Shown: positions 1,830 through 37,812 of the stretch, piece by piece
Position numbering within the stretch: position 1 is the stretch's first letter
Layout of the letters: the number at the start of each line of letters is the position of its first letter
DNA from: a virus
Lineage: Duplodnaviria; Heunggongvirae; Uroviricota; Caudoviricetes
IMG/VR virus record: IMGVR_UViG_2529293063_000017
Reading direction: 5' to 3' (one strand)
DNA: 39,037 bases
The notes under the pieces: generated by a model
What the model saw: the letters and a program-made list of their open reading frames with translations, nothing else
What the model was told of the DNA's origin: nothing
Databases searched by the model: none
Program-made: the position numbers and the translations under genes

Positions 1830-2036
1830 ATGACCAGCCATATCATCAGCGCCATTCTGACCCTTGTTTTTATTGAGATAGGCGTAATAGAGATCTATTT
1901 GTTTCGCAAGTTAACGGGACATGAAGAACGCTTTATTGAACTCAGCATTGAATATATCGCCGCTTATACCAAAGGACTTTTCCCGGCAGCTATTGGGGCG
2001 ATGTTTATAGCGTTTGTTATCTGGTTTATCGGGTGA
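1830..2036 (+). CDS. Small hydrophobic early protein (two predicted TM segments), unknown function
   Basis: 68-aa ORF directly after cox; hydrophobic N- and C-terminal stretches. Confidence 0.5.
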   Translation: MTSHIISAILTLVFIEIGVIEIYLFRKLTGHEERFIELSIEYIAAYTKGLFPAAIGAMFIAFVIWFIG

Positions 2037-2288
2037 GAAACCTGACAACCCACAACTACTGCAATGAGGGTAATTATGTGTGGCATGGACAAATTGGACC
2101 TTATGTTAATTGTAATACTATCAATTAACTTCGGTTACCTCTTAAGCGGCGCAATTCTCATGTGCGGAGGCAAACGAAAATGAACCAGCAGTCCGCAAAA
2201 CGTGAAAACAATGCGATGCGATTTAATCGCAAATATTTTGAGTTCGGCCTCTATGCCGGAATAATTAAATCTGTACAGAGTCTTTAAC

Positions 2289-2630
2289 ATGAAACAGCAA
2301 CGTAATTCACGCTTTCGCAATGGTGCAGAACGCCACGCTAACCGTTTTGCTACCAGTGCATCACGCAGCAACATCCGCTACAGCCTGAGTGATACACACG
2401 CAACGCCGGATGGCTACCCAGTAAAACAAATCGGCGAGCATGCCTGGCTGATTGAGAAAGCTGGAATCGTGATCCACAAATGCCCACACAATCCGTTTAC
2501 CGGAAACCGCATTTTTGCTCTAAGCAGTGGCGACAATCAGTTCGGGCAGGATTTCACATTATACGAAGCACTTCGCACGGTTGATCGTCTGCTTCGCGGG
2601 CAAAGTTTTATTAAACAGGCTGATTTATAA
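2289..2630 (+). CDS. Hypothetical early-operon protein
   Basis: 113-aa ORF in the co-oriented early block; no family recognised. Confidence 0.55.
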   Translation: MKQQRNSRFRNGAERHANRFATSASRSNIRYSLSDTHATPDGYPVKQIGEHAWLIEKAGIVIHKCPHNPFTGNRIFALSSGDNQFGQDFTLYEALRTVDRLLRGQSFIKQADL

Positions 2631-2640
2631 CAGGTGCTTT

Positions 2641-2928
2641 ATGACCAAAGACCATGCACAAGGTGTATTTATCCGTTTTATTGATTTTCGCGGTGAACTG
2701 TTATTACGTGCATCCGCTATTGACGGAGTGACTCCGGCGGGTAAAAACGGAGCCGACGAAGCCACTTACGTTTATCTGAACGGCACGCGACTGCTTCTGG
2801 AACTTCCGTACCAGACCGTACGAGAAATCATTAGCGAAGCTGAAAAGGCACGCCAGGCTAATGGCGATGAACCCTATATCGAAATTATTTGTATGGATTC
2901 AGAAGCTGAAATACAGAAAGCAGATTAA
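2641..2928 (+). CDS. Hypothetical early-operon protein
   Basis: ATG at 2641 (MTKDHAQGVF...); about 95 aa; tightly packed with neighbours. Confidence 0.55.
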   Translation: MTKDHAQGVFIRFIDFRGELLLRASAIDGVTPAGKNGADEATYVYLNGTRLLLELPYQTVREIISEAEKARQANGDEPYIEIICMDSEAEIQKAD

Positions 2929-2936
2929 AGGGCGTT

Positions 2937-3182
2937 GTGATGGGCAAAGAATATAAAACTCTCATTAACAAAGCACTTGAGCGTTTTTATTTTCGCTTAA
3001 GTGCATCAGGCGCTCATGCTGAACGTGCGGCCCGTGACTCATTGACCAGAGCAATCCGAAGTCTGTATGACGTGGCTTTTTACGCTGATGATCTGGATGC
3101 ACTTAACGAACTTTCCGAGCTGATCTGTGCCGCAGAATGCGGGGAACATATTGAACCGTATAAGCTGGGGAATATCGCATGA
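2937..3182 (+). CDS. Hypothetical early-operon protein
   Basis: 81-aa ORF; its stop overlaps a downstream small ORF (ATGA). Confidence 0.55.
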   Translation: MMGKEYKTLINKALERFYFRLSASGAHAERAARDSLTRAIRSLYDVAFYADDLDALNELSELICAAECGEHIEPYKLGNIA

Positions 3183-3845: not shown

Positions 3846-4141
3846 GCACCATCAATCACCAGAAGCTACGCGAACTGGCATTTGCCCTGCAACGAATGGC
3901 AACGCCTCAAAAATTACTGGTATTTCGCGCAATGCTCTCGCCGTCTGCTGTGCTGGCACTGCTGGATGAGCTGGAGCACGCCAGAACCACGGCTCCTGCC
4001 ATTCGCCTGACGCTCCATCATGAAATCGCTGATTTCTGCGCGACGTTGAAGGCGCCAGGCGAACCGGAAACACCGGAAGCAATACAGCAAGAGCTGCTGC
4101 AACGCATTGACAAGGTTTTTGATTTTTTTCTGAACCAGTAA
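3842..4141 (+). CDS. Hypothetical early-operon protein
   Basis: 99-aa ORF; start overlaps the previous stop. Confidence 0.55.
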   Translation: MSTINHQKLRELAFALQRMATPQKLLVFRAMLSPSAVLALLDELEHARTTAPAIRLTLHHEIADFCATLKAPGEPETPEAIQQELLQRIDKVFDFFLNQ

Positions 4142-4766
4142 GAAACCAGAACATGCACACACAAAAAAACCGCTTGCCATGCCGCAATCAGTCAGGTTAC
4201 ATTTCCGCTGCACCTCACAAAACGGGTGTCGGGTTTCGCAGCCTGCTGACTACACAAGCGCACAACCGCGCCAGCGGTTTTTTTGTGCGTACTGTATTGC
4301 CACGTTTTTTTCGCGTCAGAATTATGGCGGGGCGTACGGGGCCGACTTCGGTCGGGCCGGGTTCTTGTGTAGCCGGTACTGCGAACCTCGTACGTCTCGC
4401 CACCCACAGTTTCGCAGCTCTGGATGGTGAGTTTTCACAACTTACTACACAAGGGGCCACACCATGGCAAACCGCAAACCACACCGCGCTATCGCGGAGC
4501 GTCGTCACATCCAGACTGAAATCAACCGCAGACTTTCCCGCGCATCACGCGTCGCGCAAATCATGCACATCAATATGCTGCATGAGCGCAGCCACGCACT
4601 ATCAAACATTTATTCCGCCTCTGTTTTCAGCTATCTGGCGGATGATCTGCACTAGCTTCAACAGCTCATCCAGCAGCAAAACAAACTCCATTAATTCCTG
4701 TTCCGGGCCTTTCCTGCACCTTGCGGCGGGAGGCCTTCGCACATCTGTAACAAGAGGATTGCCGCA

Positions 4767-8022: not shown

Positions 8023-8982
8023 ATGAAAATTTGTATCGACGACGGCTCCACCAACATCAAGCTGGCATGGACTGAGAACGGCGAATGCCGCAACGCCATC
8101 AGCCCGAACAGCTTCAAGTCGGAATGGTCTGCGCCGTTCGGTGTCACGCAGCCCGCGAACTACATGCTTGATGGCGTGCGCTATGGTTTTGATCCGGTCA
8201 GCGATCGCTTTGTCCAGACGACCGACACGCAATACCAGTACAGCGATGTGAATGTCATTGCCATTCATCACGCGCTGGTCAAATCAGGCATCACGCCACA
8301 GGAAGTGGATGTGGTTGTCACCCTGCCACTGAGCGAGTATTTCGACACAAACGCACAGCCGGATATGACCAACATCAACCGCAAAAAAGCGAACGTCATG
8401 CGCCCGGTGGAGTACCAGAACGGTGAGGCATTCACTATCCGTAACGTGCGGGTTATGCCTGAATCCATTCCGGCTGGCTTTAAGGCACTGGCTAACATGA
8501 GTCCGTTTGAATCCCTGCTGATTGTGGATTTAGGCGGAACCACGCTGGATGTGGCAAAGGTTCAGGGGCAACTGGCAGGTATCAGCCAGGTGTTTTGCGA
8601 TCCACACGTAGGCGTTTCTCTGATGGCCGATGCCGTACTGTCGGTGATGGCCACTAACGGTATGCGCACCAGTCACCACATCGCCAATACCATTATCGAA
8701 CATCGCCATGATGAAGCCTGGCTGCGCCAGCACATCCACAATGACGCGCATTACGCCAGCCTGATGGCGGTTATTCGTGAAAAGGAAGAAACACTGAAAC
8801 AACGCGTGATCCGCGCGCTGGCGGTTTTTTCGGGTTACGGGCGGGTGATGGTTGTCGGTGGCGGGGCGGAGATTGTGGCACCCGCTATCCGCGAAGCCTG
8901 CGGAGTTAATGCGACTTTCATCGCGGACGGGGTGCCACAGTTTGCTCTGGTTAATGGGCTGTACGCAATGGACAAGGAGTAA
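8023..8982 (+). CDS. parM: ParM/StbA-like actin-type segregation ATPase
   Basis: 319 aa; N-terminus MKICIDDGSTNIKLAW...ISPNSFKSEW...QYSDVNVIAIHHAL closely matches the plasmid R1 ParM N-terminal region as I recall it. Confidence 0.8.
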   Translation: MKICIDDGSTNIKLAWTENGECRNAISPNSFKSEWSAPFGVTQPANYMLDGVRYGFDPVSDRFVQTTDTQYQYSDVNVIAIHHALVKSGITPQEVDVVVTLPLSEYFDTNAQPDMTNINRKKANVMRPVEYQNGEAFTIRNVRVMPESIPAGFKALANMSPFESLLIVDLGGTTLDVAKVQGQLAGISQVFCDPHVGVSLMADAVLSVMATNGMRTSHHIANTIIEHRHDEAWLRQHIHNDAHYASLMAVIREKEETLKQRVIRALAVFSGYGRVMVVGGGAEIVAPAIREACGVNATFIADGVPQFALVNGLYAMDKE

Positions 8983-8987
8983 ACCAA

Positions 8988-9301
8988 TGACGACATCAAC
9001 CAGACGGATAAGTTTCTATCTGAAGCCAGACGCCGTCAAGAGTGAACAAGAGGCGTGCAATTACCTCGATAGCCTGCCAGCCTCCGAACGCAGCCGCGCG
9101 CAACGCGCGGCCTTTCTGGCCGGACTGGCACTCATAAAACGCAACCCAGCATTTGCCTACTGGATGGCCGAATGGCCAGAGGATAACCTCCCCTTCAATA
9201 CCATTAGCACCAAGGAAACATACCAAGATAATCCGCCTAGCGGAATTGAATGCAATTTTTATAAAATAAAAAAGAATATTCAGACCTTATTCCCTGAATA
9301 A
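8988..9301 (+). CDS. parR: ParR/StbB-like centromere-binding adaptor
   Basis: ATG at 8988 with RBS aaggag; MTTSTRRISFYLKPD...LDSLPASERSRAQRAAFLAGLAL resembles R1 ParR (...RRTIAFKLNPD...LDSIPQGERSRLNRAALTAGLAL); sits downstream of parM as in parMRC loci. Confidence 0.75.
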
Positions 9302-9350
9302 TCTGATAATTGAATTTGAACTAATAAAACACATACCAACACATCATTCT

Positions 9351-9372
9351 GGCACCCTTGCTAACAGGGTGC
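9351..9372. terminator. Hairpin between convergent genes (possible bidirectional terminator)
   Basis: ggcaccct-tgctaac-agggtgcc, 8-bp stem; lies between the parR-like stop (9301) and the stop of the minus-strand membrane gene (9386); no clear U-tract. Confidence 0.35.
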
Positions 9373-9385
9373 CAATGATTTCAAA

Positions 9386-10228
9386 TCATGATGAAATTGC
9401 CGAAGTTTTTTTATCGTGCTGAAGTACCGCAAATGCCATCAAAACCTCAAGAGAATAGCGGCGATAATACTTAACAAAACCATAATAAAATACTCGAGAT
9501 GCAGCAAGAAAAAACAAGAAAAGAGGACCAAAAGGTAACAATCTGATATTTATATCTATTAAGTAAGATAGAGGGGCTAGACACATAATCAACCAGACTG
9601 AGGCGAGAAAAACGAATGTAATGTTTCTACAAAAACCATATAGAGCAACATAGTTTTGTATTTTCAACTGATGATTTTTCGAATGTTCATACACATAATG
9701 ATAAGCAAGACGAAAAAGATCTCCCCTCAACCCTTTGCGTCGATACAACGTAGAAACAGAAAAATTATTTATATAGCCATTTCGTATTTGCGGCCAAAAG
9801 GCCTTAATAAGTATAGGATGTAGTGTGGTTTTATGACACTCAGCTTTATCAAGAATTGATACAGGAAACAAAAAAACTCTACGAATAAAATTAAATATCT
9901 GGAATCCTGTACCACGGCGTTTTATTTTCAGGGGGTTTTTCGGGGAAAACAGATAAGTCGAAGGATATCCAAGCTTACTGTTCATGTATTTTTCAATTAA
10001 ACAGGATGATAGAATAGATATGAAGTGACCTAAAATATATGATAGAACGATCAATGTCACATACATAAACACACTTATTATTTCTTTATATTTCAAGATG
10101 TGGTTTAGAATACTCTCGACATAACCAGGGTTAATTTCAATAGAAAACAAAAAAAGGATAAACAGGAATAATCCACCTGGAATTAGATACCCCAAAAAGT
10201 CATAAAATGAAAACGGATTCTGTGTCAC
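9386..10228 (-). CDS. Polytopic membrane protein (about 4 TM segments), unknown family; accessory cargo
   Basis: 280 aa; hydrophobic helices near the N-terminus and C-terminus flanking a basic soluble segment; markedly AT-rich DNA compared with the phage backbone. Confidence 0.7.
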   Translation of the reverse strand: MTQNPFSFYDFLGYLIPGGLFLFILFLFSIEINPGYVESILNHILKYKEIISVFMYVTLIVLSYILGHFISILSSCLIEKYMNSKLGYPSTYLFSPKNPLKIKRRGTGFQIFNFIRRVFLFPVSILDKAECHKTTLHPILIKAFWPQIRNGYINNFSVSTLYRRKGLRGDLFRLAYHYVYEHSKNHQLKIQNYVALYGFCRNITFVFLASVWLIMCLAPLSYLIDINIRLLPFGPLFLFFLAASRVFYYGFVKYYRRYSLEVLMAFAVLQHDKKTSAISS

Positions 10229-10267
10229 ACTTCCCCCTGTGCTACTTGTAAATTAAAGAGTCAAACA

Positions 10268-10765
10268 TTATTTGTTTTTCCGTAAAGGATTAGCTTTCCA
10301 TCTTCTTACTAACCATTCGAATTCTTGATATGTAGTATCCGAATTAATGCTTTCTCTGATTGCTTTAATTAATGGCTCGGCAATATCATATGTCTCTACA
10401 ACTGTTGTGTAAGATGTTCTTTTTATCATTTTTTCATCATAAATACCTTCACGAATACTTACAGCAACTCGCTCGTAAAAATTTAAAATATATTGAAATT
10501 TTCGACGCTCGGCCATTTCCTCATCTGTTATTGTACAACCATCACAAGGAAAAACATAAGAACGAAATGATTTGCCTGAACGATGCACTTGTTTCAGGGT
10601 ATGCAATGACTCTATATATTGCATATCTTGCCGACTCTCAAAAAGAAAGTTAGCCGTTTGAGTTTTCTTTGCGGTACGCACATTGTAGATAATGGTTCCA
10701 ATGGCAACCAAAACGCCAAGCAGAACAATAGCATTGCTGATGATTTGTAGTGTTATTGGGTTCAT
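10268..10765 (-). CDS. Single-pass membrane-anchored protein (N-terminal TM plus about 130-aa cytoplasmic domain), unknown family; accessory cargo
   Basis: 165 aa; N-terminal ITLQIISNAIVLLGVLVAIGTIIY helix; AT-rich; co-oriented immediately upstream of 9386-10228, so a likely two-gene operon. Confidence 0.7.
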   Translation of the reverse strand: MNPITLQIISNAIVLLGVLVAIGTIIYNVRTAKKTQTANFLFESRQDMQYIESLHTLKQVHRSGKSFRSYVFPCDGCTITDEEMAERRKFQYILNFYERVAVSIREGIYDEKMIKRTSYTTVVETYDIAEPLIKAIRESINSDTTYQEFEWLVRRWKANPLRKNK

Positions 10766-10786
10766 CCTATTTCATCCATAAAAAAG

Positions 10787-10812
10787 GCGGGGAGCAAATC
10801 CCCGCCTCATTA
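10787..10812. other. GC-rich palindrome; terminator or cos-proximal element
   Basis: aaaaaaggcgggga-gcaaa-tccccgcctc; partial resemblance to the G-rich P2/186 cohesive-end sequence as I recall it; lies in the about 650-bp non-coding stretch next to Q where P2 carries cos. Confidence 0.3.
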
Positions 10813-10961
10813 GAGGTCAACGTAGCTTAGAAACCATCAAATTCATCATACATTTTTTTCATATCAACCCCCTCATAGAAATCATAACCACGTTTTGTGG
10901 TTTTTGTGACGCATAAACTACATCAAAGGCAAGCCACGGTCAAATATATAGGCATGCTTAC

Positions 10962-22833: not shown

Positions 22834-24999
22834 ATGAGTACCACAACACGAAAATTTAAAACCATTATCACTGATACTGGTGCCAAAAAATTAGCTCAGG
22901 CAGCCGCGCCAGGTGGTAATCCTGTCCGCCTGACTCACATGGCCGTGGGCGACGGTGGCGGCACGTTGCCCACACCAGACAGTAAGCAGACCCGTCTGGT
23001 GCATGAGGTGTGGCGACATACTGTTAATCGCGTCATCCTGGACGCAACACATCAGAACCGCATTATTGCGGAGCTGGTTATTCCTCCTGAAACGGGCGGA
23101 TTCTGGATCCGGGAAATTGGTGTATTTGATGAGCACGGCGATTTAATCGCGGTGGGCAATACTGCCGAAAGTTACAAACCAACCGTTGCCGAAGGGTCCG
23201 GACGTGCACAAACATTTCGCACCATTCTGACCGTATCCAGCACTGCCACCGTGGCGCTTACCGTGGATAACACCATGGTGATGGCCACAGTGGATTACGT
23301 GGATGACAAACTGAAAGAGCATGAACAGTCACGACGTCACCCGGATGCCTCGCTGACCGCAAAAGGCTTTGTTCAACTCAGTAGCGCCACTAACAGCGAT
23401 TCTGAAACGCTGGCTGCAACGCCGAAAGCGGTTAAGGCCGCGTATGACCTGGCTAACGGAAAATATACCGCTCAGGACGCCACGACGGCACGAAAAGGGA
23501 TAGTCCAGCTCAGCAGTGCAACCAACAGCACGTCTGAAACGCTGGCAGCGACACCAAAAGCGGTTAAGGCGGTAATGGATGAAACGAACAAGAAAGCCCC
23601 ATTAAACAGCCCGGCACTGACCGGAACGCCAACAACACCAACTGCACAACAGGGAACGAATAATACCCAAATCGCAAGCACGGCTTTCGTTATGGCCGCG
23701 ATTGCCGCACTTGTAGACTCTTCACCTGACGCACTGAACACGCTGAACGAACTGGCGGCGGCGCTGGGCAACGACCCGAATTTTGCGACCACCATGACTA
23801 ACGCGCTTGCGGGTAAGCAACCGAAAGATGCCACCCTGACGGCGCTGGCCGGGCTTGCTACTGCGGCAGACAGGTTTCCGTATTTTACGGGGAATGATGT
23901 TGCCAGTCTGGCAACCCTGACAGAAGTCGGGCGGGATATTCTTGCGAAATCGACCGTTGCCGCTGTTATCGAATACCTCGGTTTACAGGAAACGGTAAAC
24001 AGGGCTGGTAACGCCGTGCAAAAAAATGGCGATACCTTGTCCGGTGGGCTTACTTTTGAAAATGACTCAATCCTTGCCTGGATTCGAAATACTGACTGGG
24101 CGAAGATTGGATTTAAAAATGATGCTGATGGTGACACTGATTCATACATGTGGTTTGAAACAGGCGACAACGGCAATGAATATTTCAAATGGAGAAGCAA
24201 AAAAAGCACCACAACAAAAGACCTGATGAATCTTAAATGGGATGCTTTGTTTGTCCTTGTTAAAGCCCTTTTCAGCAGTGAAGTAAAAATATCGACAGTC
24301 AATGCACTAAGGATATTTAATTCATCTTTTGGTGCCATTTTTCGCCGTTCTGAAGAATGCCTGCATATCATCCCGACACGAGAGAATGAGGGAGAAAATG
24401 GTGATATAGGGCCACTACGCCCCTTTACGCTTAATCTTAGAACTGGTCGGATAAGCATGGGGCATGGTCTTGATGTTACAGGGGATATATTTGCAAACCG
24501 TTTTGCAATTAACAGTAGTACCGGCATGTGGATTCATATGCGTGACCAGAATGTTATTTTGGGACGCAATGCGGTATCCACCGATGGTGCACAGGCATTA
24601 CTTCGTCAGGACCATGCTGATCGCAAATTTATGATTGGTGGGCTGGGAAATAAGCAATTTGGCATCTACATGATTAATAACTCAAGGACAGCTAATGGCA
24701 CCGATGGTCAGGCGTACATGGATAATAACGGGAACTGGCTTTGCGGCTCGCAAGTTATTCCCGGCAACTATGGCAATTTTGATTCCAGATATGTGAAAGA
24801 TGTTCGACTTGGTTCACAGCAATATTATGGAGTGAACAACTGGCAAACATGGAATTTCCAGTGCCCGTCAGGTCATGTATTGTCTGGTATTAATGTTCAG
24901 GATACAGGGTCCAACTCTGCCGATAATATAGCGGGCGTTTATTACAGACCCGTTCAAAAGTATATAAATGGCACCTGGTATAATATAGCGAGCGTTTAA
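22834..24999 (+). CDS. H: Tail fibre protein, gpH-like; C-terminal part lies inside the invertible segment (currently expressed variant)
   Basis: 721 aa; Ala/Thr-rich repeats; C-terminus ...[12 protein letters not shown]; a gix-like crossover site at 23966-23999 lies in-frame inside the gene. Confidence 0.9.
23966..23999. other. gix/hix-like inversion crossover site (left inverted repeat, about 34 bp)
   Basis: ttatcgaatacctcggtttacaggaaacggtaaa; reverse-complement match to 27030-27063; resembles the Mu gix site as I recall it (TTCCTGTAAACCGAGGTTTTGGATAA). Confidence 0.75.
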
Positions 25000-25000
25000 T

Positions 25001-25528
25001 ATGATGCACTTAAAGAACATAAAAGCGGGTAATGCTAAAACACTGGAACAGTATGAGTTAACAAAGAAGCACGGAGTCATCTGGCTTTACTCTGAGGACG
25101 AAAAAAACTGGTATGAGGAAGTGAAAAACTTTCAGCCAGACACCATAAAGATTGTTTACGATAAAAATCAGATTATAGTCGCTATCACCAGAGATGCTTC
25201 AACGCTTAATCCTGAAGGTTTTAGCGTTGTTGAGGTTCCTGATATTACCTCCAACCGACGTGCTGACGACTCAGGTAAATGGATGTTTAAGGATGGTGCT
25301 GTGGTTAAACGGATTTATACGACAGATGAGCAGCAACAACAGGCAGAATCACAAAAGGCCGCGTTACTTTCCGAAGCAGAAAGCGTTATTCAGCCACTGG
25401 AACGCGCCGTCAGGCTGAATATGGCGACGGATGAGGAACGCGCACGACTGGAGTCATGGGAACGCTACAGTGTTCTGGTCAGCCGTGTGGATACGGCAAA
25501 TCCTGAATGGCCACAAAAGCCTGAATAA
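25001..25528 (+). CDS. G: Tail fibre assembly protein (gpG / Mu U-like)
   Basis: 175 aa; immediately after H; paralogous to the minus-strand ORF 25557-26090. Confidence 0.85.
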
Positions 25529-25534
25529 AAATTA

Positions 25535-25554
25535 AGGCCCGCTATAGGGCCTTG
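25535..25554. terminator. Hairpin between convergent G and G' (bidirectional terminator candidate)
   Basis: aaggccc-gctata-gggcctt, 7-bp stem, at the centre of the invertible segment. Confidence 0.45.
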
Positions 25555-25556
25555 TC

Positions 25557-26090
25557 TCATTCAGGTTGTTCGGGAAACGTTACTGGCAGGCTGGAAGTGT
25601 CTGTAGATTCGACTTTCTGCGCAAAGAGCATCCACTCTGTTAATTTTTGTTTATTCTCGTCGGAAATGATGCCCAGCCGTAGCTGTGAGTCCCATAGCTG
25701 GGTTTTATCCCTGACGAGCTGTAGCAGGCTTTGCTTTTCATTTTCCGCCTGCTGCCTCTGCTCTTCCTCGGTATAAGTTCGCTTTACCACTACGCCATCT
25801 TTGAACATCCATTTACCCGAAATGTCAGCACGGCGATTTGCTGTAATATCAGGTAATTCAACGACGCTTGCGCCTTCCGGATTAATTGCTGAAACATCCT
25901 TTTCAATACAAATAATAACGCCGTTATGGCCATAGACCATTTTCAAAGTGTCTGGCTGGAAATTCTTTTGTTCCTCATACCAGTTTTTTCCATCATCTGA
26001 ATAAAGCCATTTGATGTTAAATTGCTTTGTTAGCTGGTATTGCTCTTTTGTTTTAGGGTTGCCAGCAGTAATGTTTTTTAAGTGCATCAT
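25557..26090 (-). CDS. Alternative tail fibre assembly protein (G'/U'-like)
   Basis: 177 aa; MMHLKNITAGNPKT... paralogous to G ([14 protein letters not shown]...). Confidence 0.85.
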   Translation of the reverse strand: MMHLKNITAGNPKTKEQYQLTKQFNIKWLYSDDGKNWYEEQKNFQPDTLKMVYGHNGVIICIEKDVSAINPEGASVVELPDITANRRADISGKWMFKDGVVVKRTYTEEEQRQQAENEKQSLLQLVRDKTQLWDSQLRLGIISDENKQKLTEWMLFAQKVESTDTSSLPVTFPEQPE

Positions 26091-26092
26091 CG

Positions 26093-27037
26093 TTAAATAC
26101 TCCCCGCGTTATACCACGTCCCATTAATGCAATACTGAATTGGCCTTGCCTGAGTTGTATCAATTAATGCATCACGGTTTCCGTTGACTGAACCCGTAAC
26201 GACATAACCTGACCTGTCAGACCAGCCGGGGCCATTCCATGTCTGAACAGATGACAGACCGCCAAGGCGAATACCTGTAATAAACCTTGAGTTACATTCT
26301 GCCTGCGTGTATGCACCAACATCTCCCGCAGAGGGTTTGCGGGTCGTGGTGTAAAACTCTGACCAGTCAACCTCAAATCCATAACCATCACGCGCTGAAC
26401 GATAAAAAATACCGCCGTTCCTGTAATTCACGCGGAACTGTACAGCAGGGCAGCTCCCCGTATTCATATTGAAGTGGAGGATTAATGTCGATGCGCCACC
26501 AATGTTTGCGTTATAGACCCCGCTATTCCAGTTCCAGCCAACAGCTTTATCATTTCCGACAGTGCTTCCTGTTTGCCCTAAAGCAAATGCAGGTTGTTGA
26601 TTTTTCGTGTTGTAGTCTCGTCGCCAGCCAGGAGCATAAGCATCACCATGATTAATATAAGTGAATTGAGCGTTAGTAATTCCGCCACCGCTGGACGTGC
26701 TCGGCGTGGTAACGCGTATGGTCATTGCGCCGCGAGTGCCAATAACTTCCACCACAGCACCTGCAAGACAAATATTTCCGCAACCTGTATCTGTAATGAC
26801 CTTATTATTTGCATAAGCCCATGAGCCTTTGCACATCCAGTAAGGATGGTTAAATGCTCCCTGACTCTCCAGCCACGAAATAAATTGCGCGGTTGTCCAG
26901 ACCTGACTATCGCCACCAATATCCAGCCATGCGCTATATGCGCGGCAGGCCCCAATATTTTTGGTGAAGGTATCTTTTCCCGGAATATCTGCGCCGTTCT
27001 GGTTTTTCTGTAATGCGCCAGAAGCCTGATTTACCGT
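26093..27037 (-). CDS. Alternative tail-fibre C-terminal variable segment (H'-variable), start-less; fuses to H constant part after inversion
   Basis: Reading frame is open on the minus strand from the gix-like site down to the stop at 26093 and in phase with H across the shared crossover sequence; ends ...INGTWYNAGSI, parallel to the H C-terminus. Confidence 0.75.
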   Translation of the reverse strand, partial: TVNQASGALQKNQNGADIPGKDTFTKNIGACRAYSAWLDIGGDSQVWTTAQFISWLESQGAFNHPYWMCKGSWAYANNKVITDTGCGNICLAGAVVEVIGTRGAMTIRVTTPSTSSGGGITNAQFTYINHGDAYAPGWRRDYNTKNQQPAFALGQTGSTVGNDKAVGWNWNSGVYNANIGGASTLILHFNMNTGSCPAVQFRVNYRNGGIFYRSARDGYGFEVDWSEFYTTTRKPSAGDVGAYTQAECNSRFITGIRLGGLSSVQTWNGPGWSDRSGYVVTGSVNGNRDALIDTTQARPIQYCINGTWYNAGSI

Positions 27038-27063
27038 TTCCTGTAAACCGAGGTTTTAGATAA
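27030..27063. other. gix/hix-like inversion crossover site (right inverted repeat)
   Basis: ttcctgtaaaccgaggttttagataa at 27038-27063, 25/26 to the Mu gix sequence as I recall it; inverted copy of 23966-23999. Confidence 0.8.
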
Positions 27064-27117
27064 TGGCCGTTTCCGGCCTGCATGGCATGATTTGCGCTTT
27101 TGGACGGGAGATTCAGC

Positions 27118-27705
27118 GTGCTGATTGGCTATGTAAGGGTATCAACAAATGACCAGAATACAGACCTGCAACGAAACGCTCTTGTTTGTGCAGGATGTGA
27201 ACAAATATTTGAAGATAAATTAAGCGGGACAAAGACAGACCGACCGGGATTAAAACGCGCTTTAAAGCGCCTTCAAAAAGGTGACACGCTGGTTGTCTGG
27301 AAACTGGATCGCCTCGGGCGAAGCATGAAACATCTGATTTCTCTCGTCGGGGAACTACGGGAGCGAGGAATTAATTTTCGCAGTCTGACCGACAGCATAG
27401 ATACATCTTCTCCAATGGGGCGTTTTTTCTTCCACGTGATGGGTGCCCTGGCTGAAATGGAACGTGAATTAATTGTTGAACGTACACTGGCCGGACTGGC
27501 GGCAGCACGCGCACGGGGGCGCACAGGCGGACGTCGACCGAAGCTGACAAAAGAACAGCATGAGCAAATAGCAAGGCTGATCAAAAACGGGCACGACAGA
27601 AAACAACTGGCAATAATTTACGGCATTGGTATATCGACGATTTATCGTTACCACCCCGCAGGAGAATCAATCGGAACAATAGAGAAGAGTCAGGAAACAA
27701 AATAA
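27118..27705 (+). CDS. Serine DNA invertase, Gin/Pin/Cin/Hin family
   Basis: MLIGYVRVSTNDQNTDLQRNALVCAGCEQIFEDKLSG...LVVWKLDRLGRSMKHLISLVGELRERGINFRSLTDSIDTSSPMGRFFFHVMGALAEMERELI... is close to Gin-family invertases; GTG start at 27118 (the ORF track extends to a TTG at 27100). Confidence 0.9.
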   Translation: MLIGYVRVSTNDQNTDLQRNALVCAGCEQIFEDKLSGTKTDRPGLKRALKRLQKGDTLVVWKLDRLGRSMKHLISLVGELRERGINFRSLTDSIDTSSPMGRFFFHVMGALAEMERELIVERTLAGLAAARARGRTGGRRPKLTKEQHEQIARLIKNGHDRKQLAIIYGIGISTIYRYHPAGESIGTIEKSQETK

Positions 27706-27737
27706 CCGCTAATCTGACCATTAGCGGTTTTTGTGTT
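27706..27737 (+). terminator. Rho-independent terminator after the invertase gene
   Basis: ccgctaat-ctgacc-attagcgg hairpin followed by tttttgtg. Confidence 0.5.
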
Positions 27738-33316: not shown

Positions 33317-33482
33317 AGCTTCAGCCCCTTGTATCCGTTAAATGATTCGGCAACAATCATCACCCACCACGCGCGTAATCTCACCCCTGCGACGTTCTCC
33401 CGCCACGGCGACAACAAAAAGCAGTAACCCCCTCCGCACGCACATGCGACCATGCCGCACAGGGAGGGAACAGATGACCGAC

Positions 33483-34583
33483 ACCACCATGCAATTGATC
33501 AGTCAGGGCACAGACCCCGTGAAAATGCCGGATTTTGATATTCTCGCGGAGGGTAAAACGCTGTCAGGCGTGGCAGAGCGCCTGATGAGCCTGTCACTGA
33601 CCGACAACCGGGGATTTGAAGCAGACCAGCTCACCATCACGCTGGATGATGCAGATGGTCAGTTGCATCTACCGCCACGGGGCGCGCGCCTGACGGTTCT
33701 CATTGGCTGGAAAGGGGAACCGCTGACAGAAAAAGGCACTTACATTGTTGATGAAATCGCTCACGAAGGACCGCCGGACAGGCTGACTGTTTCAGCCAGA
33801 AGCGCAGATTTTCGGGATGAATTTAACGTTAAACGAGAGGTGTCCTGGCATGATGTGACCGTTGAGCGTGTGGTATCCGCCATCGCTCATCGGTATGGTC
33901 TGAAACCGCAAATCAGCGAAATGCTGATGGATATCGAAATCGACCACGCCGACCAGACCGAAGAAAGCGACATGTCCTTCCTTACGCGCATGGCGGAAAT
34001 GCTGGGCGCAATCACCACGGTAAAAAGCGGCAATCTGTTATTCATCATGCCAGGTGGTGGCGTGAACGCACAGGGCCAGCCGTTGCCCTCGTTCGCCATT
34101 ACACGCAGCAGCGGCGATCGCCATCAGTTCCGTATTGCTGATCGCGAGGCGTATACGGGGGTACGCGCCTACTGGCTTGATCTTAATTACGGGAAAAAGA
34201 AAAAAGTCAGCGTGAAACGCCGTAAACCGCCAAAACCCAAAAAGGAGAAAAGCAGCAGCCGTGAAGGTGATTATATGGAAGGCGCGGAAGGCAATGTGTT
34301 TGTGTTACGCAAGACTTATCAGAACGAGCAGGCAGCAAGACGCGCAGCGGCGGCAAAGTGGCAGCAGCTACAACGCGGAGCCGCATCATTTTCCATCACG
34401 CTGGCACGTGGACGCGCAGAACTCTACCCCGAAATGCATGGCACGGTAACAGGATTTAAAAGCGAGATTGATAATCAGGACTGGATTATTGCAAAAGTCG
34501 AGCACACCGTTGATAACAGCGGCTTTACCACGCAGCTTGAGCTTGAAGCAAAAATCCCGGAATGGATAGCGGAAACAGAATGA
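33483..34583 (+). CDS. D: Tail protein gpD-like (late gene D)
   Basis: ...SWHDVTVERVVSAIAHRYGLKP...HADQTEESDMSFLTRMAEMLGAITTVKSGNLLF...GGVNAQGQPLP...FVLRKTY...RGAASFSITLARGR... matches P2 gpD; ATG at 33483 after RBS gggaggg. Confidence 0.85.
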   Translation, partial: TTMQLISQGTDPVKMPDFDILAEGKTLSGVAERLMSLSLTDNRGFEADQLTITLDDADGQLHLPPRGARLTVLIGWKGEPLTEKGTYIVDEIAHEGPPDRLTVSARSADFRDEFNVKREVSWHDVTVERVVSAIAHRYGLKPQISEMLMDIEIDHADQTEESDMSFLTRMAEMLGAITTVKSGNLLFIMPGGGVNAQGQPLPSFAITRSSGDRHQFRIADREAYTGVRAYWLDLNYGKKKKVSVKRRKPPKPKKEKSSSREGDYMEGAEGNVFVLRKTYQNEQAARRAAAAKWQQLQRGAASFSITLARGRAELYPEMHGTVTGFKSEIDNQDWIIAKVEHTVDNSGFTTQLELEAKIPEWIAETE

Positions 34584-34694
34584 GCGATTTGGAGATATTA
34601 AATCAAACATGAGTAAATATTACCAATAACAGAGTGTACTTATTGGATGTATAGTTCTTTCATTTTTTAGGAGAAATTAAGAAAATTAACTCAA

Positions 34695-34727
34695 TGTGCA
34701 CCTTATAAAGGCGCACACTTTGTTTTG
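34695..34727 (+). terminator. Rho-independent terminator candidate after D
   Basis: Imperfect hairpin tgtgcacc-ttataaa-ggcgcaca followed by tttgttttg. Confidence 0.45.
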
Positions 34728-34731
34728 CATG

Positions 34732-35790
34732 TTAAAAATTATTTATTATGTGTTCAGCTAAATGATCATACTCACCAGCCATCTCATTCATTAGTTCTAC
34801 CTGATTAACTGCCCATTGCCCCCGCCCACGAAGAGCATTCGTTGGCCTAACTCGAGACAAATAGCGAATAGGTATATTTTGAATAATACTATCAGGAGCC
34901 ATAACGTTGAGGTCCTCAATCTTTCCAACTGGTTCATAATCAGTAAAATCAGGAACCGCGTTGTAAGATGAAATCTGTGAAAGCTGAGGAAGCATTTTTT
35001 CCTCTATCGCTTTTCTTATTGAACGGTGATGAACTGCATCTGCACCAACCTCTTGTTTAACATCATTTTGCTTTCTCGTATCAAAACCATTGAATATCCA
35101 ACCGCCAAATTTAGGCATCCCTTTCTGAGATATAATATTATCTCGTGGGTTACCTGATAGATATCTTTCCTTGCCCTGCTCCCAATCACGTATAAATGAT
35201 GGCAACATCTCACCAATCAGCCCTACACAATATGAAGAGAATAAATCAGGTGTGCATGGAACTAAAAAATAGTCCGAGCAGTACAATGACGATCTAACAA
35301 GCGTATTGAATGAGGGAGGTAAATCTATTAGGACATAATCATAAATAACATCATTTTTCTCTGATGCTTTTTTTGTTATCAAATCTGGCAAAATAAAACG
35401 ATATAACCCTGCGCCACTTATAACATCAGTGCCGACATTTAAAATATCTGAAAATGTATTAAGCCAAAAGTCTCCAGGAACAATATGCAAAACGCCTGCA
35501 TCTGTCTTAGTCTTAGGTTCTGTTGTATAAACTTCACCTATAGTATTTTGTTGTATGTAAGGCAATGCAAATGCTTTAACCGTTTTTCCAAAAGGGAAAT
35601 CATCTGAAGGTTCCAATAACTCTGAAAATTCCTCATCACCAATACATGCAATTGAGAGATTACACTGGGGATCAAAGTCTATTAATAAAACACTTTTTCC
35701 TTTATCTGCTAGCGATACTGCAAGATTCCAAATTATAGTTGTTTTACCAACACCACCTTTGTTATTAAAAATCGATATAGTTTTTGTCAT
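34732..35790 (-). CDS. ParA/MinD-family Walker-type ATPase with about 100-aa C-terminal extension; solo accessory gene
   Basis: 352 aa; N-terminal deviant Walker A (MTKTISIFNNKGGVGKTT); AT-rich; no ParB-like partner gene nearby. Confidence 0.8.
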   Translation of the reverse strand: MTKTISIFNNKGGVGKTTIIWNLAVSLADKGKSVLLIDFDPQCNLSIACIGDEEFSELLEPSDDFPFGKTVKAFALPYIQQNTIGEVYTTEPKTKTDAGVLHIVPGDFWLNTFSDILNVGTDVISGAGLYRFILPDLITKKASEKNDVIYDYVLIDLPPSFNTLVRSSLYCSDYFLVPCTPDLFSSYCVGLIGEMLPSFIRDWEQGKERYLSGNPRDNIISQKGMPKFGGWIFNGFDTRKQNDVKQEVGADAVHHRSIRKAIEEKMLPQLSQISSYNAVPDFTDYEPVGKIEDLNVMAPDSIIQNIPIRYLSRVRPTNALRGRGQWAVNQVELMNEMAGEYDHLAEHIINNF

Positions 35791-36050
35791 TTACAACCCT
35801 TATTTCAGTGAAATTTTCGTTGAGAATCAGCATTTGTTTTTTTTGCATAAACCACAATTCAACTTTGAGATTAACACAAGCCTTATTGTTATACATTAAA
35901 ATCCTACTCAAATGACATCATTGAGATACTCATGTAATTTATTCGCCACGACAAAGCCTTCTTCAGTGACTTGCTCAAAGCGGAGTTGCTGTTGGAATCT
36001 GAGTTGGGGCAACTTAGAATGGTGGCAGCACCACGTTAAGGGAGGTCGCT

Positions 36051-36311
36051 ATGTTTCGTTGTCCGCTTTGTGGCGCATCTGCCCGTATCCGCACCAGTCG
36101 TCCTGAAAATGATTCAAACACCGTGCGGCAAAAGTATTACCAGTGTAACAATCTGGAATGCGGCGTATGCTTCTCAACACTGGAAGCTTTCCATAAATTC
36201 ACATCAAAACACGCCTCCGGCGCTCTCTCTTCAGAAGGTATCCCGTGGCATAAGCTGCCAGCTTCACACAGGGGAAACAATCAGATGAGTTTGCCTTTAC
36301 CTCAGAATTAA
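36051..36311 (+). CDS. ogr: Ogr/Delta-family zinc-finger late-gene transcription activator
   Basis: MFRCPLCGASARIRTSR...YYQCNNLECGVCFSTLEAF... resembles P2 Ogr (MFHCPLCQHAAHARTSR...YHQCQNVNCSATF...). Confidence 0.85.
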   Translation: MFRCPLCGASARIRTSRPENDSNTVRQKYYQCNNLECGVCFSTLEAFHKFTSKHASGALSSEGIPWHKLPASHRGNNQMSLPLPQN

Positions 36312-36502: not shown

Positions 36503-36643
36503 ATGTCGCAAAAATCGCTTACGGCCATCACGTTCTGCGTGACGGTAATCCTCATCATCTGGATGCTGCACGGTTCGCTGTGTGAAATACGGATGAGCTT
36601 CTGGGGAGCGGAGTTTGCGGCGTTCTTACAGTGTAAGCAGTAA
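36503..36643 (+). CDS. hok: Hok/Gef-family type I toxin (small membrane peptide)
   Basis: 46 aa, below the ORF-track length cut-off; MSQKSLTAITFCVTVILIIWMLHGSLCEIRMSFWGAEFAAFLQCKQ has the N-terminal TM helix and the SLCEIR...E.AAF... signature of Hok/Gef peptides; RBS ggagcaagcgctATG. Confidence 0.7.
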   Translation: MSQKSLTAITFCVTVILIIWMLHGSLCEIRMSFWGAEFAAFLQCKQ

Positions 36644-36878
36644 GGAAACCGCGACGGGGGAGTAATCCCCCGTCAATCGGTTGCCAGGGTAAGGTCGATA
36701 AGGCACCCTATATCACAGACATGAACAACAAGCCCGCAGCGTAAAAACTGCGGGTTTTCTTTTTGGTATCCCCATCCATAAGCAATAGGCATAACAGATC
36801 GATGCAATAAATCCGATCGATAAAAACGATCGATTTGTTATCATATCGGCAGCAGTAACCACACAAGAGGTGCCGCAA

Positions 36879-37076
36879 ATGACGCAAAATGTACGATGCA
36901 AAAATTGCAACAAACTACTTGCCCGCGCCTCATTTCACTACATTGAAATAAAATGTCCGCGCTGCAAAACACTTAACCAGATAACGAGAGCCATTGAGCA
37001 CCCCACACACATGAGGAGTTATGACCGTGGGGATCGCAATCCAGCACCAACCAGCACATACACCGGAACACACTAA
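36879..37076 (+). CDS. com: Com-like zinc-finger protein (Mu Com family translational activator)
   Basis: MTQNVRCKNCNKLLARASFHYIEIKCPRCKTLNQITRAIEHPT... resembles Mu Com (MKSIRCKNCNKLLFKADSFDHIEIRCPRCKRHIIMLNACEHPT...); its 3' end overlaps the start of the methyltransferase gene. Confidence 0.8.
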   Translation: MTQNVRCKNCNKLLARASFHYIEIKCPRCKTLNQITRAIEHPTHMRSYDRGDRNPAPTSTYTGTH

Positions 37077-37812
37077 GGTTTATCAGACTGACAATGCCAC
37101 GCTCTGTCGTGGGAATGCGCTGGAAATATTGCCGCTGATTGAGCCAGAAAGTATTGATGCCTTAATCACTGACCCGCCTTACAGTTCGGGCGCGACACAC
37201 AAGGCCGGACGCACCAACCAGGGCAGCCACGCAAAATATCTGAACGGCGAGAACCTTCATCGCTTTGATGGGTTTGCGGGTGAAAACATGGATGCCCGTT
37301 CGTGGGCTTACTGGACACAATTATGGATGGCACAGGCACACCGCGCAGTCAGGCCGGGCGGTTATGCCCTGGTATTTACTGACTGGCGACAACTGCCAGC
37401 TTTAACCGATGCGTTTCAGGCCAGCGGTTTTACATGGCGTGGAATCATTGCGTGGAACAAAGGAAGGGGGTCACGAACACCCCATACGGGGTATTTCCGG
37501 CATCAGTGCGAATACATCGTCTGGGGCAGTAAAGGCCATTTAGGTAAATCGCCTTCGGGACCGTTCGACGGCTGCATGACGTTCCCGGTTATCCCATCAA
37601 AGAAAATGCACCCGACCGGAAAACCAGAAGAACTTATGGCAGAACTGGTCAGGACTGCGAATAGTGGTGGAACAGTCCTTGATCCTTTTATGGGATCGGG
37701 AACAACGGGTGTTGCAGCACTGAAAGCAGGACGCAAATTTATTGGTATAGAAACCAGTGATCATTATTTTGATGTAGCAACACAACGGCTCAAAACGGCG
37801 ATCGAACCATAA
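37021..37812 (+). CDS. DNA methyltransferase (N6-adenine or N4-cytosine class, DPPY motif), orphan
   Basis: 263 aa; motif IV ...LITDPPYSSG... precedes motif I ...LDPFMGSGTTGVAA... (beta-class order); RBS gaggag before the ATG; no adjacent restriction endonuclease gene. Confidence 0.85.
   Translation: MTVGIAIQHQPAHTPEHTKVYQTDNATLCRGNALEILPLIEPESIDALITDPPYSSGATHKAGRTNQGSHAKYLNGENLHRFDGFAGENMDARSWAYWTQLWMAQAHRAVRPGGYALVFTDWRQLPALTDAFQASGFTWRGIIAWNKGRGSRTPHTGYFRHQCEYIVWGSKGHLGKSPSGPFDGCMTFPVIPSKKMHPTGKPEELMAELVRTANSGGTVLDPFMGSGTTGVAALKAGRKFIGIETSDHYFDVATQRLKTAIEP

What the first reader, a model, noticed from the sequence alone, without database searches (positions are those of the whole stretch)
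34584..36050. Solo ParA/MinD-like ATPase with long C-terminal extension inserted between D and ogr
A 352-aa Walker-type ATPase (KGGVGKTT) on the opposite strand from its neighbours, in AT-rich DNA flanked by AT-rich intergenic regions, with no ParB or centromere partner. Canonical ParA proteins are about 100 aa shorter; the extra C-terminal domain is unassigned. Its location in a cargo slot at the late-operon end suggests a moron with a non-partition role (for example defence, exclusion or host manipulation).
Basis: partly seen in the sequence, partly recalled or inferred. Interest (0 to 1): 0.65.

Follow-up and report, generated by a model that had tools for sequence, protein, structure and literature searches.

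The report
Solo ParA-like ATPase as prophage cargo
A P2-like E. coli prophage carries a swappable one-gene cassette encoding a stand-alone ParA-type ATPase with no partition partner; it belongs to a compact, cross-phylum, uncharacterised family found in prophage and plasmid cargo slots and is most likely an anti-phage or anti-mobile-element protein.

Summary
The ORF is real: 34732..35790 (minus strand), 352 aa, KGGVGKTT. It is intact and under strong purifying selection (dN/dS 0.06-0.09). It lies in a 1409-bp, 35% GC cassette inserted exactly between the D stop codon and the ogr ribosome-binding site of a P88-like prophage.

No ParB or centromere is present, and no partner gene recurs across 29 loci. 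The D-ogr site is polymorphic: mostly empty, otherwise PIN, DUF3800, a weak HEPN-like gene, unknowns or IS600.

Family members occupy the canonical P2 portal-gpA defence hotspot, a Mu-like gemA-mor slot, a Clostridium prophage, restriction/Abi islands, a 4.9-kb plasmid, and IncX1 plasmids that already have their own ParA-ParG.

One distant analogue, GiPD474 (26% identity), is an experimentally shown single-gene phage-defence protein. This family is untested, unnamed and absent from PADLOC.

Verdict: a non-partition cargo gene, probably defence or exclusion. The mechanism is inferred only.

The parts
34585..35993 (.). Inserted cargo cassette (1409 bp, 35.3% GC) between the D stop codon and the ogr ribosome-binding site
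   Evidence: Boundaries from alignment to the empty site of phage P88 and to the PIN-occupied site; GC
34732..35790 (-). Orphan ParA/MinD-class ATPase gene, 352 aa, deviant Walker A KGGVGKT (K11, K16), Walker A' D38/D40, Walker B D156
   Evidence: (these residues are invariant in 45 homologs); dN/dS 0.06-0.09
34693..34719 (-). Hairpin (12-bp stem) 13 nt after the ParA stop codon: terminator-like on the minus strand; on the plus strand it is followed by TTTGTTTTG, so it may also end D transcripts
   Evidence: scan; sequence; function inferred
35797..35801 (-). Shine-Dalgarno-like AAGGG, 6 nt before the ATG; AAATAAGG is conserved in the closest homologs
35863..35879 (-). Conserved 5' block TTGTGTTAATCTCAAAG, about 89 nt upstream of the ATG, containing an extended -10-like TGnTAATCT; candidate promoter element that travels with the gene
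   Evidence: Present in 5 of 5 closest homologs in different genomic contexts (1.9% chance per shuffled sequence); only a weak promoter match
34585..34604 (.). Left border sequence shared with the PIN cassette and absent from the empty P88 site
35991..36022 (+). Right border shared with the PIN cassette (GTTGGAATCTGAGTTGGGGCAACTTAGAATGG); overlaps the promoter-like site TTGGAA-17-TAGAAT just upstream of ogr
33342..34583 (+). Flanking gene D (late control / tail protein), context only
36051..36311 (+). Flanking gene ogr (late transcription activator), context only

Best explanation
The cassette is an autonomous, horizontally mobile one-gene module carried as prophage cargo. Its product is an orphan ParA/MinD-class ATPase that does not segregate DNA for its carrier. 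It most likely protects the lysogen, and hence the prophage, against other phages or competing mobile elements. Proposed mechanism: ATP binding drives formation of the sandwich dimer typical of deviant-Walker-A ATPases, with signature lysine K11 reaching across to the partner's nucleotide. The dimer presents a family-specific surface built from the insertions: the long conserved helix 183-226 carrying DWEQGKxRY, and the Arg-rich loop 312-327. That surface binds a target, either invading DNA or a nucleoprotein or phage protein complex. Because the protein has no nuclease, protease, NADase or membrane domain, the block would be non-enzymatic: sequestration, mis-positioning or occlusion at a post-adsorption step such as replication or packaging. 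ATP hydrolysis would reset the switch. Shown here: the fold, intact catalytic motifs, solo status, mobility, purifying selection and cargo-slot location. Inferred: expression in the lysogen, dimerisation, the role of the insertions, the anti-phage phenotype and the mode of action.
For: Single ParA/MinD fold with all ATPase and dimer motifs invariant. Strong purifying selection, dN/dS 0.06-0.09. Precise presence/absence polymorphism with alternative single-gene cargo at the same nucleotide position, including PIN_12 and a weak HEPN-like protein. No conserved neighbour in 29 loci except integrases. An 88%-identical homolog in a Providencia P2-like prophage lies between the portal gene and gpA, and a 43% member lies next to the portal gene of another P2-like element; PMC13586616 and 10.1101/2024.10.15.618418 name this the main P2 defence hotspot. 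Other contexts: the gemA-mor slot of Mu-like prophages, a Clostridium prophage, beside type I restriction genes, beside HigB/ImmA-like genes, among AbiE/RT/SNF2/hok on an Aeromonas plasmid, and as sole cargo on a 4.9-kb plasmid. Precedent: GiPD474, a solo ParA-fold, AAA_31 protein of 361 aa in the Gifsy-1 immunity region, gives about 5-log protection against T4, Alf5 and FO1 (PMC12724215); its sequence was recovered here and aligns collinearly over 290 columns, hhalign probability 98.6%. A third lineage, ST160 Orf23 (29% identity), occupies the cI-to-N slot that holds bstA and rexAB. The gene keeps 36-38% GC in Erwinia, Providencia, Desulfocicer and Vibrio, as mobile accessory genes often do.
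Against: No experiment exists on this family. GiPD474 is only 26% identical and scores 60 bits on the family profile, lower than an ordinary short ParA at 108 bits, so function cannot be transferred by homology. There is no effector domain, so the mechanism is conjecture. PADLOC matches only 38 P-loop residues, although PADLOC also misses GiPD474. No consensus-quality sigma-70 promoter was found upstream. The family is unusually conserved, 61-93% identity across phyla and about 6 clusters at 50% identity; this is atypical for fast-evolving phage sensors and could instead point to a conserved MGE-maintenance role. On IncX1 plasmids it lies in the maintenance region next to parA-parG, the resolvase gene and ddp3. 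The protein is acidic, pI 4.95, which does not by itself favour DNA coating.
Confidence: 0.5

Rival explanations
1. An MGE maintenance or inter-element competition factor rather than anti-phage immunity. The orphan ParA would interfere with, or supplement, DNA positioning of mobile elements, for example by destabilising or excluding competing plasmids, phage-plasmids or the plasmid state of P4-type satellites through partition-type incompatibility, or by stabilising its own carrier by a partner-independent route.
For: 182 full-length plasmid copies at 57-59% identity. In IncX1 plasmids the gene lies in the maintenance region directly after resolvase-parA-parG and before ddp3/pir. The same prophage carries plasmid-type ParM/StbB genes, showing gene traffic with plasmids. 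High conservation across phyla fits a universal target such as DNA or a ParABS-type machine.
Against: Integrated prophages, a 4.9-kb multicopy-type plasmid and chromosomal islands do not need partition. No adaptor or centromere accompanies the gene anywhere. No experiment links any member to plasmid stability; pECTm80 lists it as a conserved hypothetical.
Confidence: 0.2
2. Host manipulation or lysogenic conversion. A MinD/FlhG/MipZ-like switch would re-position or inhibit a host machine (division, flagella, pili, chemoreceptors, cellulose synthase) to benefit the lysogen or the phage's own cycle.
Against: No C-terminal amphipathic membrane helix: the last helix is the canonical core helix and is acidic. 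MinD, BcsQ and FlhG family models score far below their cutoffs. The gene occurs at more than 60% identity in hosts as different as Clostridium, cyanobacteria and E. coli, which share few such machines. The surrounding genes are defence/MGE genes rather than division or motility genes.
Confidence: 0.1
3. An ordinary type I partition ATPase whose ParB and centromere lie elsewhere in the prophage, serving an episomal stage.
For: Deviant Walker A and ParA fold. The best NCBIfam hit is ParA_partition. The prophage also has ParM/StbB, hinting at an extrachromosomal life.
Against: ParA_partition scores 72.7 bits against a cutoff of 180. There is no downstream gene, only 147 bp with a hairpin, and no repeats. 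RefSeq annotation of the whole prophage lists no ParB. ParM/StbB is a self-contained type II system. No partner recurs in 29 loci. IncX1 plasmids carry a separate complete ParA-ParG. Most P88-like prophages lack the gene.
Confidence: 0.03
4. A decaying or functionless hitch-hiker.
For: Rare in E. coli, 15 of 5426 genomes; no strong promoter.
Against: dN/dS 0.06-0.09; intact in all copies; 108 invariant columns in 45 homologs from several phyla.
Confidence: 0.02

Closest known systems
GiPD474 (WP_000368620.1), Gifsy-1 prophage defence protein of Salmonella Typhimurium 4/74 (PMC12724215)
   Same: Single gene; about 355-360 aa; ParA/MinD fold with Pfam AAA_31 and a KGGVGKT P-loop; extra residues beyond a 255-aa ParA; no effector domain; carried in a prophage cargo slot; collinear alignment over 290 columns.
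   Different: Only 26% identity and 60 bits on the family profile, no closer than generic ParAs. It has a 20-residue N-terminal extension, lacks the DWEQGKxRY motif, and sits beside the repressor in a lambdoid immunity region rather than in a P2 slot. It was described within Enterobacteriaceae, whereas this family spans phyla. Its phenotype is shown; this family's is not.
IncX1 plasmid gene WP_012291478 (pOLA52) / orf15 of pECTm80
   Same: Same family: 57% identity, full length, about 354 aa.
   Different: Plasmid-borne, downstream of a canonical parA-parG pair; lacks the 5' block of the prophage subgroup. It is also uncharacterised ('conserved hypothetical').
DIP2308 of Corynebacterium diphtheriae (PDB 3pg5), a structural-genomics protein of unknown function
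   Different: 22% identity; no known function or context.
Orf23 of P22-like phages ST160 and SE1
   Same: Solo ParA-like protein of 357 aa in a prophage cargo slot; 29% identity, E 6e-29, 120 bits on the family profile.
   Different: KGGVSKT P-loop; lies between c2 and gene 24 (the bstA/rexAB slot) together with a DUF3024 gene; untested.
Type Ib partition ParA (Soj, ParF, PDB 8ray) with ParB/ParG and a centromere
   Different: About 100 residues longer through internal insertions; no adaptor protein, no centromere, no operon partner; below every partition family cutoff.

Membership tests
Type I (ParABS) partition ATPase | Deviant Walker A KGGxGK[ST] and the ParA/MinD fold | tested here: met
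Type I (ParABS) partition ATPase | Cognate ParB/ParG adaptor gene in the same operon | tested here: not met
   Only 147 bp and a hairpin downstream; no ParB annotated in the whole prophage; no recurring neighbour in 29 loci
Type I (ParABS) partition ATPase | Centromere-like iterated repeats nearby | tested here: not met
   Only two-copy, chance-level repeats in 34500-36100
Type I (ParABS) partition ATPase | Score above the curated family cutoff (NF041546 ParA_partition, 180 bits) | tested here: not met
   72.7 bits
MinD / FlhG / BcsQ positioning ATPases | Family model above cutoff and a C-terminal amphipathic membrane-targeting helix | tested here: not met
   minD_bact 37 bits against a cutoff of 212.9, BcsQ 46.9 against 157.85; the terminal helix 328-351 is the canonical core helix with net charge -5
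GiPD474 family (as delimited in PMC12724215: at least 70% identity and 70% coverage) | Sequence membership | tested here: not met
   26% identity over 255 residues; 60 bits on the family HMM
GiPD474 family (as delimited in PMC12724215: at least 70% identity and 70% coverage) | Solo ParA-fold / AAA_31 gene of about 360 aa carried by a prophage | tested here: met
GiPD474 family (as delimited in PMC12724215: at least 70% identity and 70% coverage) | Location in the immunity region next to the repressor/cro/cII module | tested here: not met
   It lies between D and ogr; GiPD474 lies just after a CI-like repressor
GiPD474 family (as delimited in PMC12724215: at least 70% identity and 70% coverage) | Reduces plating of phages when expressed alone | not testable with these tools
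   Needs plaque assays
Long orphan ParA clade typified by DIP2308 (3pg5) | 330-360 aa ParA-like protein with 3pg5 as nearest solved relative and alignment extending beyond the 255-aa core | tested here: met
PADLOC candidate PDC-M28B | Full-length match to the model | tested here: not met
   Only residues 3-40 (the P-loop) match, 30 bits
Prophage cargo cassette ('moron') | Presence/absence polymorphism at a fixed site, deviant composition, own transcription signals, opposite orientation to neighbours | tested here: met
   site and GC; hairpin; conserved 5' block; the promoter itself is only weakly supported

The most novel reading that the evidence does not exclude
A partition-type (ParA) ATPase family has been repurposed as an effector-less, single-protein immunity or exclusion factor. 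It would stop invading DNA (phage, plasmid or satellite) by ATP-dependent sequestration or mis-positioning rather than by destroying nucleic acids or killing the cell. This compact family, spread across Proteobacteria, Firmicutes, cyanobacteria and Desulfobacterota on prophages and plasmids, is missing from current defence catalogues. Together with GiPD474 and ST160 Orf23 it would mark at least three independent recruitments of orphan ParAs as prophage cargo.
Probability: 0.3. Interest if true: 0.8.

Novelty: new variant of a known kind. Interest (0 to 1): 0.55.

Why it matters
If this family is protective, it adds a widespread, very compact (1.4 kb with its own signals) and cross-phylum defence or exclusion module that PADLOC-type annotation misses. 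It would also give a second, independent entry point to an open mechanistic question raised by GiPD474: how can a ParA-type switch with no effector domain stop a phage?

It also flags the D-ogr junction of P88-like prophages as a cassette-swapping slot with defined borders, a place to mine further single-gene candidates (PIN_12, DUF3800, a weak HEPN-like gene and two unknowns seen here).

Finally, the same family sits uncharacterised in the backbone region of common IncX1 resistance plasmids, so its function bears on plasmid biology as well.

Tried and rejected
- **AFDB50 fold search:** the library was unavailable.
- **BFVD viral fold search:** only weak, short ParA-like hits (TM 0.4 or less), uninformative.
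- **PADLOC:** only a 38-residue P-loop match to PDC-M28B. This is not evidence either way, because the validated GiPD474 is also missed.
- **Literature search for WP_000167856:** nothing. WP_012291478 gave only a GO-prediction case study.
- **Centromere search:** no iterated repeats.
- **Promoter search:** no consensus sigma-70 site on the minus strand at the tool's threshold. A relaxed scan gave only 7/12-level candidates.
- **N-terminal extension of the 414-466 aa variants as an HTH:** only sub-threshold hits (HTH_17 E 0.012, P22_Cro 0.0097), so inconclusive.
- **Looking for GiPD474 among Salmonella phage tblastn hits:** ST160 and SW-70 carry a different ParA-like gene (Orf23; frameshifted in SW-70). 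This was solved by using the lambda-Red primer arm as an exact DNA pattern.
- **Hypothesis that GiPD474, Orf23 and this protein form one close family:** rejected. They are mutually 24-29% identical, and GiPD474 is no closer than generic ParAs, although all three have 3pg5 as their top PDB relative.
- **Conserved 5' block as a family-wide regulatory element:** rejected. It is confined to the closest subgroup.
- **ParM/StbB as the missing partner:** rejected, because type II systems are self-contained and the module lies in a different slot.

Full report
**1. The observation.** The ORF is present exactly as described: 34732..35790 on the minus strand, 352 aa, beginning MTKTISIFNNKGGVGKTT. It lies between D (plus strand, ends 34583) and ogr (plus strand, 36051..36311). 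GC falls to 32-41% across 34500-36000 against 51-56% on either side. The window is a complete P88-like (Xuanwuvirus, P2-like) prophage lying next to the host gene flk. RefSeq annotates the gene as 'ParA family protein' WP_000167856.1 in 15 of 5426 complete E. coli genomes.

**2. Boundaries and the slot.** I aligned the window to the empty site of phage P88 and to a PIN-occupied site. This defines the insert as 34585..35993 (1409 bp, 35.3% GC), placed precisely between the D stop codon and the ogr ribosome-binding site. A 1246-bp PIN cassette (34% GC) sits at the identical point and shares about 20 bp of border sequence on each side that the empty site lacks. In a spread sample of 45 E. coli records with both flanks, about three quarters of the sites are empty. 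The rest hold single genes: ParA, PIN_12, DUF3800, a weak HEPN_RiboL-PSP-like protein, two unknowns, or IS600. D-ogr is therefore a low-occupancy cassette-swapping slot. The P2 hotspot surveys name portal-gpA, Z/fun and a tail-protein-to-CI region. They do not name D-ogr specifically.

**3. The protein is not a ParA plus a C-terminal domain.**
- PHROG 164 (ParA-like) aligns residues 1-350 onto 249 profile positions.
- An AlphaFold model built on 45 homologs is confident (pLDDT 90.1, pTM 0.91) and shows one continuous alpha/beta fold ending in helix 328-351.

The extra ~100 residues are insertions within the fold. Read from the secondary-structure string, so approximate, they are 60-99, 183-226 (a 31-residue helix), 238-249, 271-288 and 312-327. 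Insertion 183-226, with the motif DWEQGKxRY, is nearly as conserved as the core (0.77 against 0.79 mean majority frequency; 16 of 44 columns invariant). The other insertions are more variable. The signature lysine K11, Walker A K16/T17, Walker A' D38/D40 and Walker B D156 are invariant, so an ATP-dependent dimerising switch is expected. The protein is acidic (pI 4.95), with one conserved Arg-rich loop at 312-327.

**4. It is functional and solo.** dN/dS against the Erwinia and Providencia homologs is 0.06 and 0.09. No partition equivalog reaches its cutoff; ParA_partition scores 72.7 bits against 180. There are no iterated repeats. Downstream of the stop codon there are only 147 bp, holding a 12-bp-stem hairpin. 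I collected 29 loci with genuine family members, called ORFs within 3 kb on each side and clustered them. No neighbour family recurs across independent contexts except tyrosine integrases. The prophage does contain a ParM/StbA plus StbB(ParR) pair at 8023..9301. That is a self-contained type II module in a different slot, not a partner for a ParA.

**5. The family.** Word-indexed search gives full-length homologs at 61-93% identity in Erwinia, Providencia, Hahella, Pseudomonas, Vibrio, Aeromonas, Desulfocicer, Desulfofundulus, Clostridium, Nostoc and Xenococcus. The exhaustive search of 1.84 billion representatives shows a compact family of about 6 clusters at 50% identity scoring above 330 bits. 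Scores then drop to a large cloud of 330-360 aa orphan ParA-like proteins at 100-130 bits; 6989 proteins reach E of 1e-10 or better. The gene stays at 36-38% GC in Erwinia, Providencia, Desulfocicer and Vibrio. No deposited phage genome carries a close relative, the best being below 36% identity, but 13 IMG/VR viral contigs do.

**6. Contexts.**

| Host or element | Identity to window protein | Position of the gene |
|---|---|---|
| Providencia, P2-like prophage | 88% | Between portal gene and gpA, the classical old/tin hotspot |
| Second P2-like element (L126) | 43% | Next to the portal gene |
| Vibrio cholerae and one further Mu-like prophage | 64% (V. cholerae) | At gemA/mor |
| Clostridium pasteurianum prophage | 63% | Beside the integrase, on the opposite strand |
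| Erwinia | 93% | Beside type I restriction genes |
| Desulfocicer | 79% | Beside HigB and an HTH-M78 protein |
| Desulfofundulus | 62% | Beside IS110 |
| Pseudomonas | 73% | In an integrase-bounded island |

Plasmids add 182 full-length copies at 57-59% identity.
- On a 4.9-kb mobilisable plasmid the gene is the sole cargo.
- On an Aeromonas conjugative plasmid it sits among AbiE, a reverse transcriptase, an SNF2 protein and hok.
- On IncX1 plasmids it lies directly after a complete canonical ParA(206 aa)-ParG pair. The literature lists it there only as a conserved hypothetical.

**7. Precedent.** The held literature contains one experimentally characterised solo ParA-fold defence gene, GiPD474 of Gifsy-1: AAA_31, GGVGKT at residues 29-34, about 5-log protection against T4, Alf5 and FO1, mechanism unknown (PMC12724215). 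I recovered its sequence by using a knockout-primer arm as an exact pattern on viral contigs; it is L022 5723..6808, 361 aa, lying just after a CI-like repressor. It aligns collinearly with my protein over 290 columns (hhalign probability 98.6%) but at only 26% identity. On the family profile it scores 60 bits, below ST160 Orf23 (120 bits) and below an ordinary short ParA (108 bits). It is therefore an analogue in fold, size, solo status and prophage carriage. It is not a family member. ST160/SE1 Orf23 (357 aa, 29% identity) is a third lineage. It lies between c2 and gene 24, the slot that holds bstA in BTP1 and rexAB in lambda. All three have the uncharacterised DIP2308 (3pg5) as their nearest solved relative.

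**8. Interpretation.** The evidence establishes a mobile, selected, partner-less ParA-class gene that behaves as cargo of prophages, plasmids and islands and keeps company with defence genes. I judge an anti-phage or exclusion role the most likely (about 0.5). The proposed mechanism is an ATP-driven dimer whose insertion-built surface binds invading DNA or a phage complex and blocks it non-enzymatically. That mechanism is inference. The main rival (about 0.2) is an MGE maintenance or competition role, suggested by the IncX1 maintenance-region context and by the family's unusual conservation. Host manipulation (about 0.1) is less likely. Canonical partition and pseudogene status are essentially excluded.

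**9. Novelty and score.** The gene family is unnamed and untested, and it is distinct from GiPD474. However, the kind (an orphan ParA-like single gene as prophage cargo with a defence phenotype) now has one published example. I rate it a new variant of a known kind, interest 0.55. A specialist would not be astonished by a defence candidate in a P2-like cargo slot. Still, an effector-less ParA-type module with cross-phylum spread and IncX1 carriage is a good and readily testable lead.

Noticed in passing
window 8023..9301 (+): A complete type II partition-like pair, ParM/StbA (StbA_N 8.6e-82, ParM_N 6.3e-69) and StbB/ParR-like (Plasmid_stab_B 2.7e-29), sits in the gpA-portal hotspot of this integrated P2-like prophage. 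It is also present in strain 2003-3014. It is unclear why an integrating phage carries it.
   Followed up: partly
window ~9300..10900 (ORFs 9386..10228 and 10268..10765, minus strand): A second AT-rich cassette (33% GC) in the canonical hotspot: a 280-aa multi-TM protein with a weak Csx27-like N-terminus (PADLOC E 4e-5) plus a DUF4760 protein (1.1e-34). It is absent from the otherwise 96-97% identical prophage of strain 2003-3014. It is a candidate two-gene defence module.
   Followed up: partly
window 35991..36022 (+): The right border shared by the ParA and PIN cassettes carries the TTGGAA part of a promoter-like site (TTGGAA-17-TAGAAT) directly upstream of ogr. The empty P88 site has the TAGAAT but not the TTGGAA, so occupied sites may alter ogr expression.
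   Followed up: no
window 36503..37812 (+): Between ogr and the host gene flk lie a hok/gef toxin gene, a Com-family zinc-finger regulator and an overlapping DNA methyltransferase (MTase_II 2.5e-63), a mom-like com-MTase arrangement at the prophage end.
   Followed up: no
window 23558..27735: The tail-fibre / Z-fun-type region differs from strain 2003-3014 and includes a segment in inverted orientation (26609..26977). That strain carries a serine acetyltransferase there.
   Followed up: no
L017 2021..3574 (Salmonella phage ST160) and L016 (phage SW-70): P22-like phages carry DUF3024 plus an orphan ParA-like Orf23 (KGGVSKT) between c2 and gene 24, the bstA/rexAB slot. In SW-70 the ParA-like gene is split into two ORFs, apparently by a frameshift.
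   Followed up: partly
P0089, P0098 and about 15 other hits (414-466 aa): A mainly cyanobacterial subgroup of the family has a 60-residue N-terminal extension that looks like an HTH (HTH_17 full-length match but E 0.012), reminiscent of type Ia ParA autoregulatory domains.
   Followed up: partly
L002, L110-L113 (E. coli D-ogr sites): The alternative single-gene cargo at the same slot comprises PIN_12 (356 aa), DUF3800 (389 aa), a weak HEPN_RiboL-PSP-like protein (340 aa) and two proteins with no Pfam hit (384 and 221 aa). None is recognised by PADLOC.
   Followed up: partly
window 3850..4655 versus L194: There is another short non-homologous stretch between the cox-side early genes of this prophage and its close relative, a further small variable spot.
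   Followed up: no
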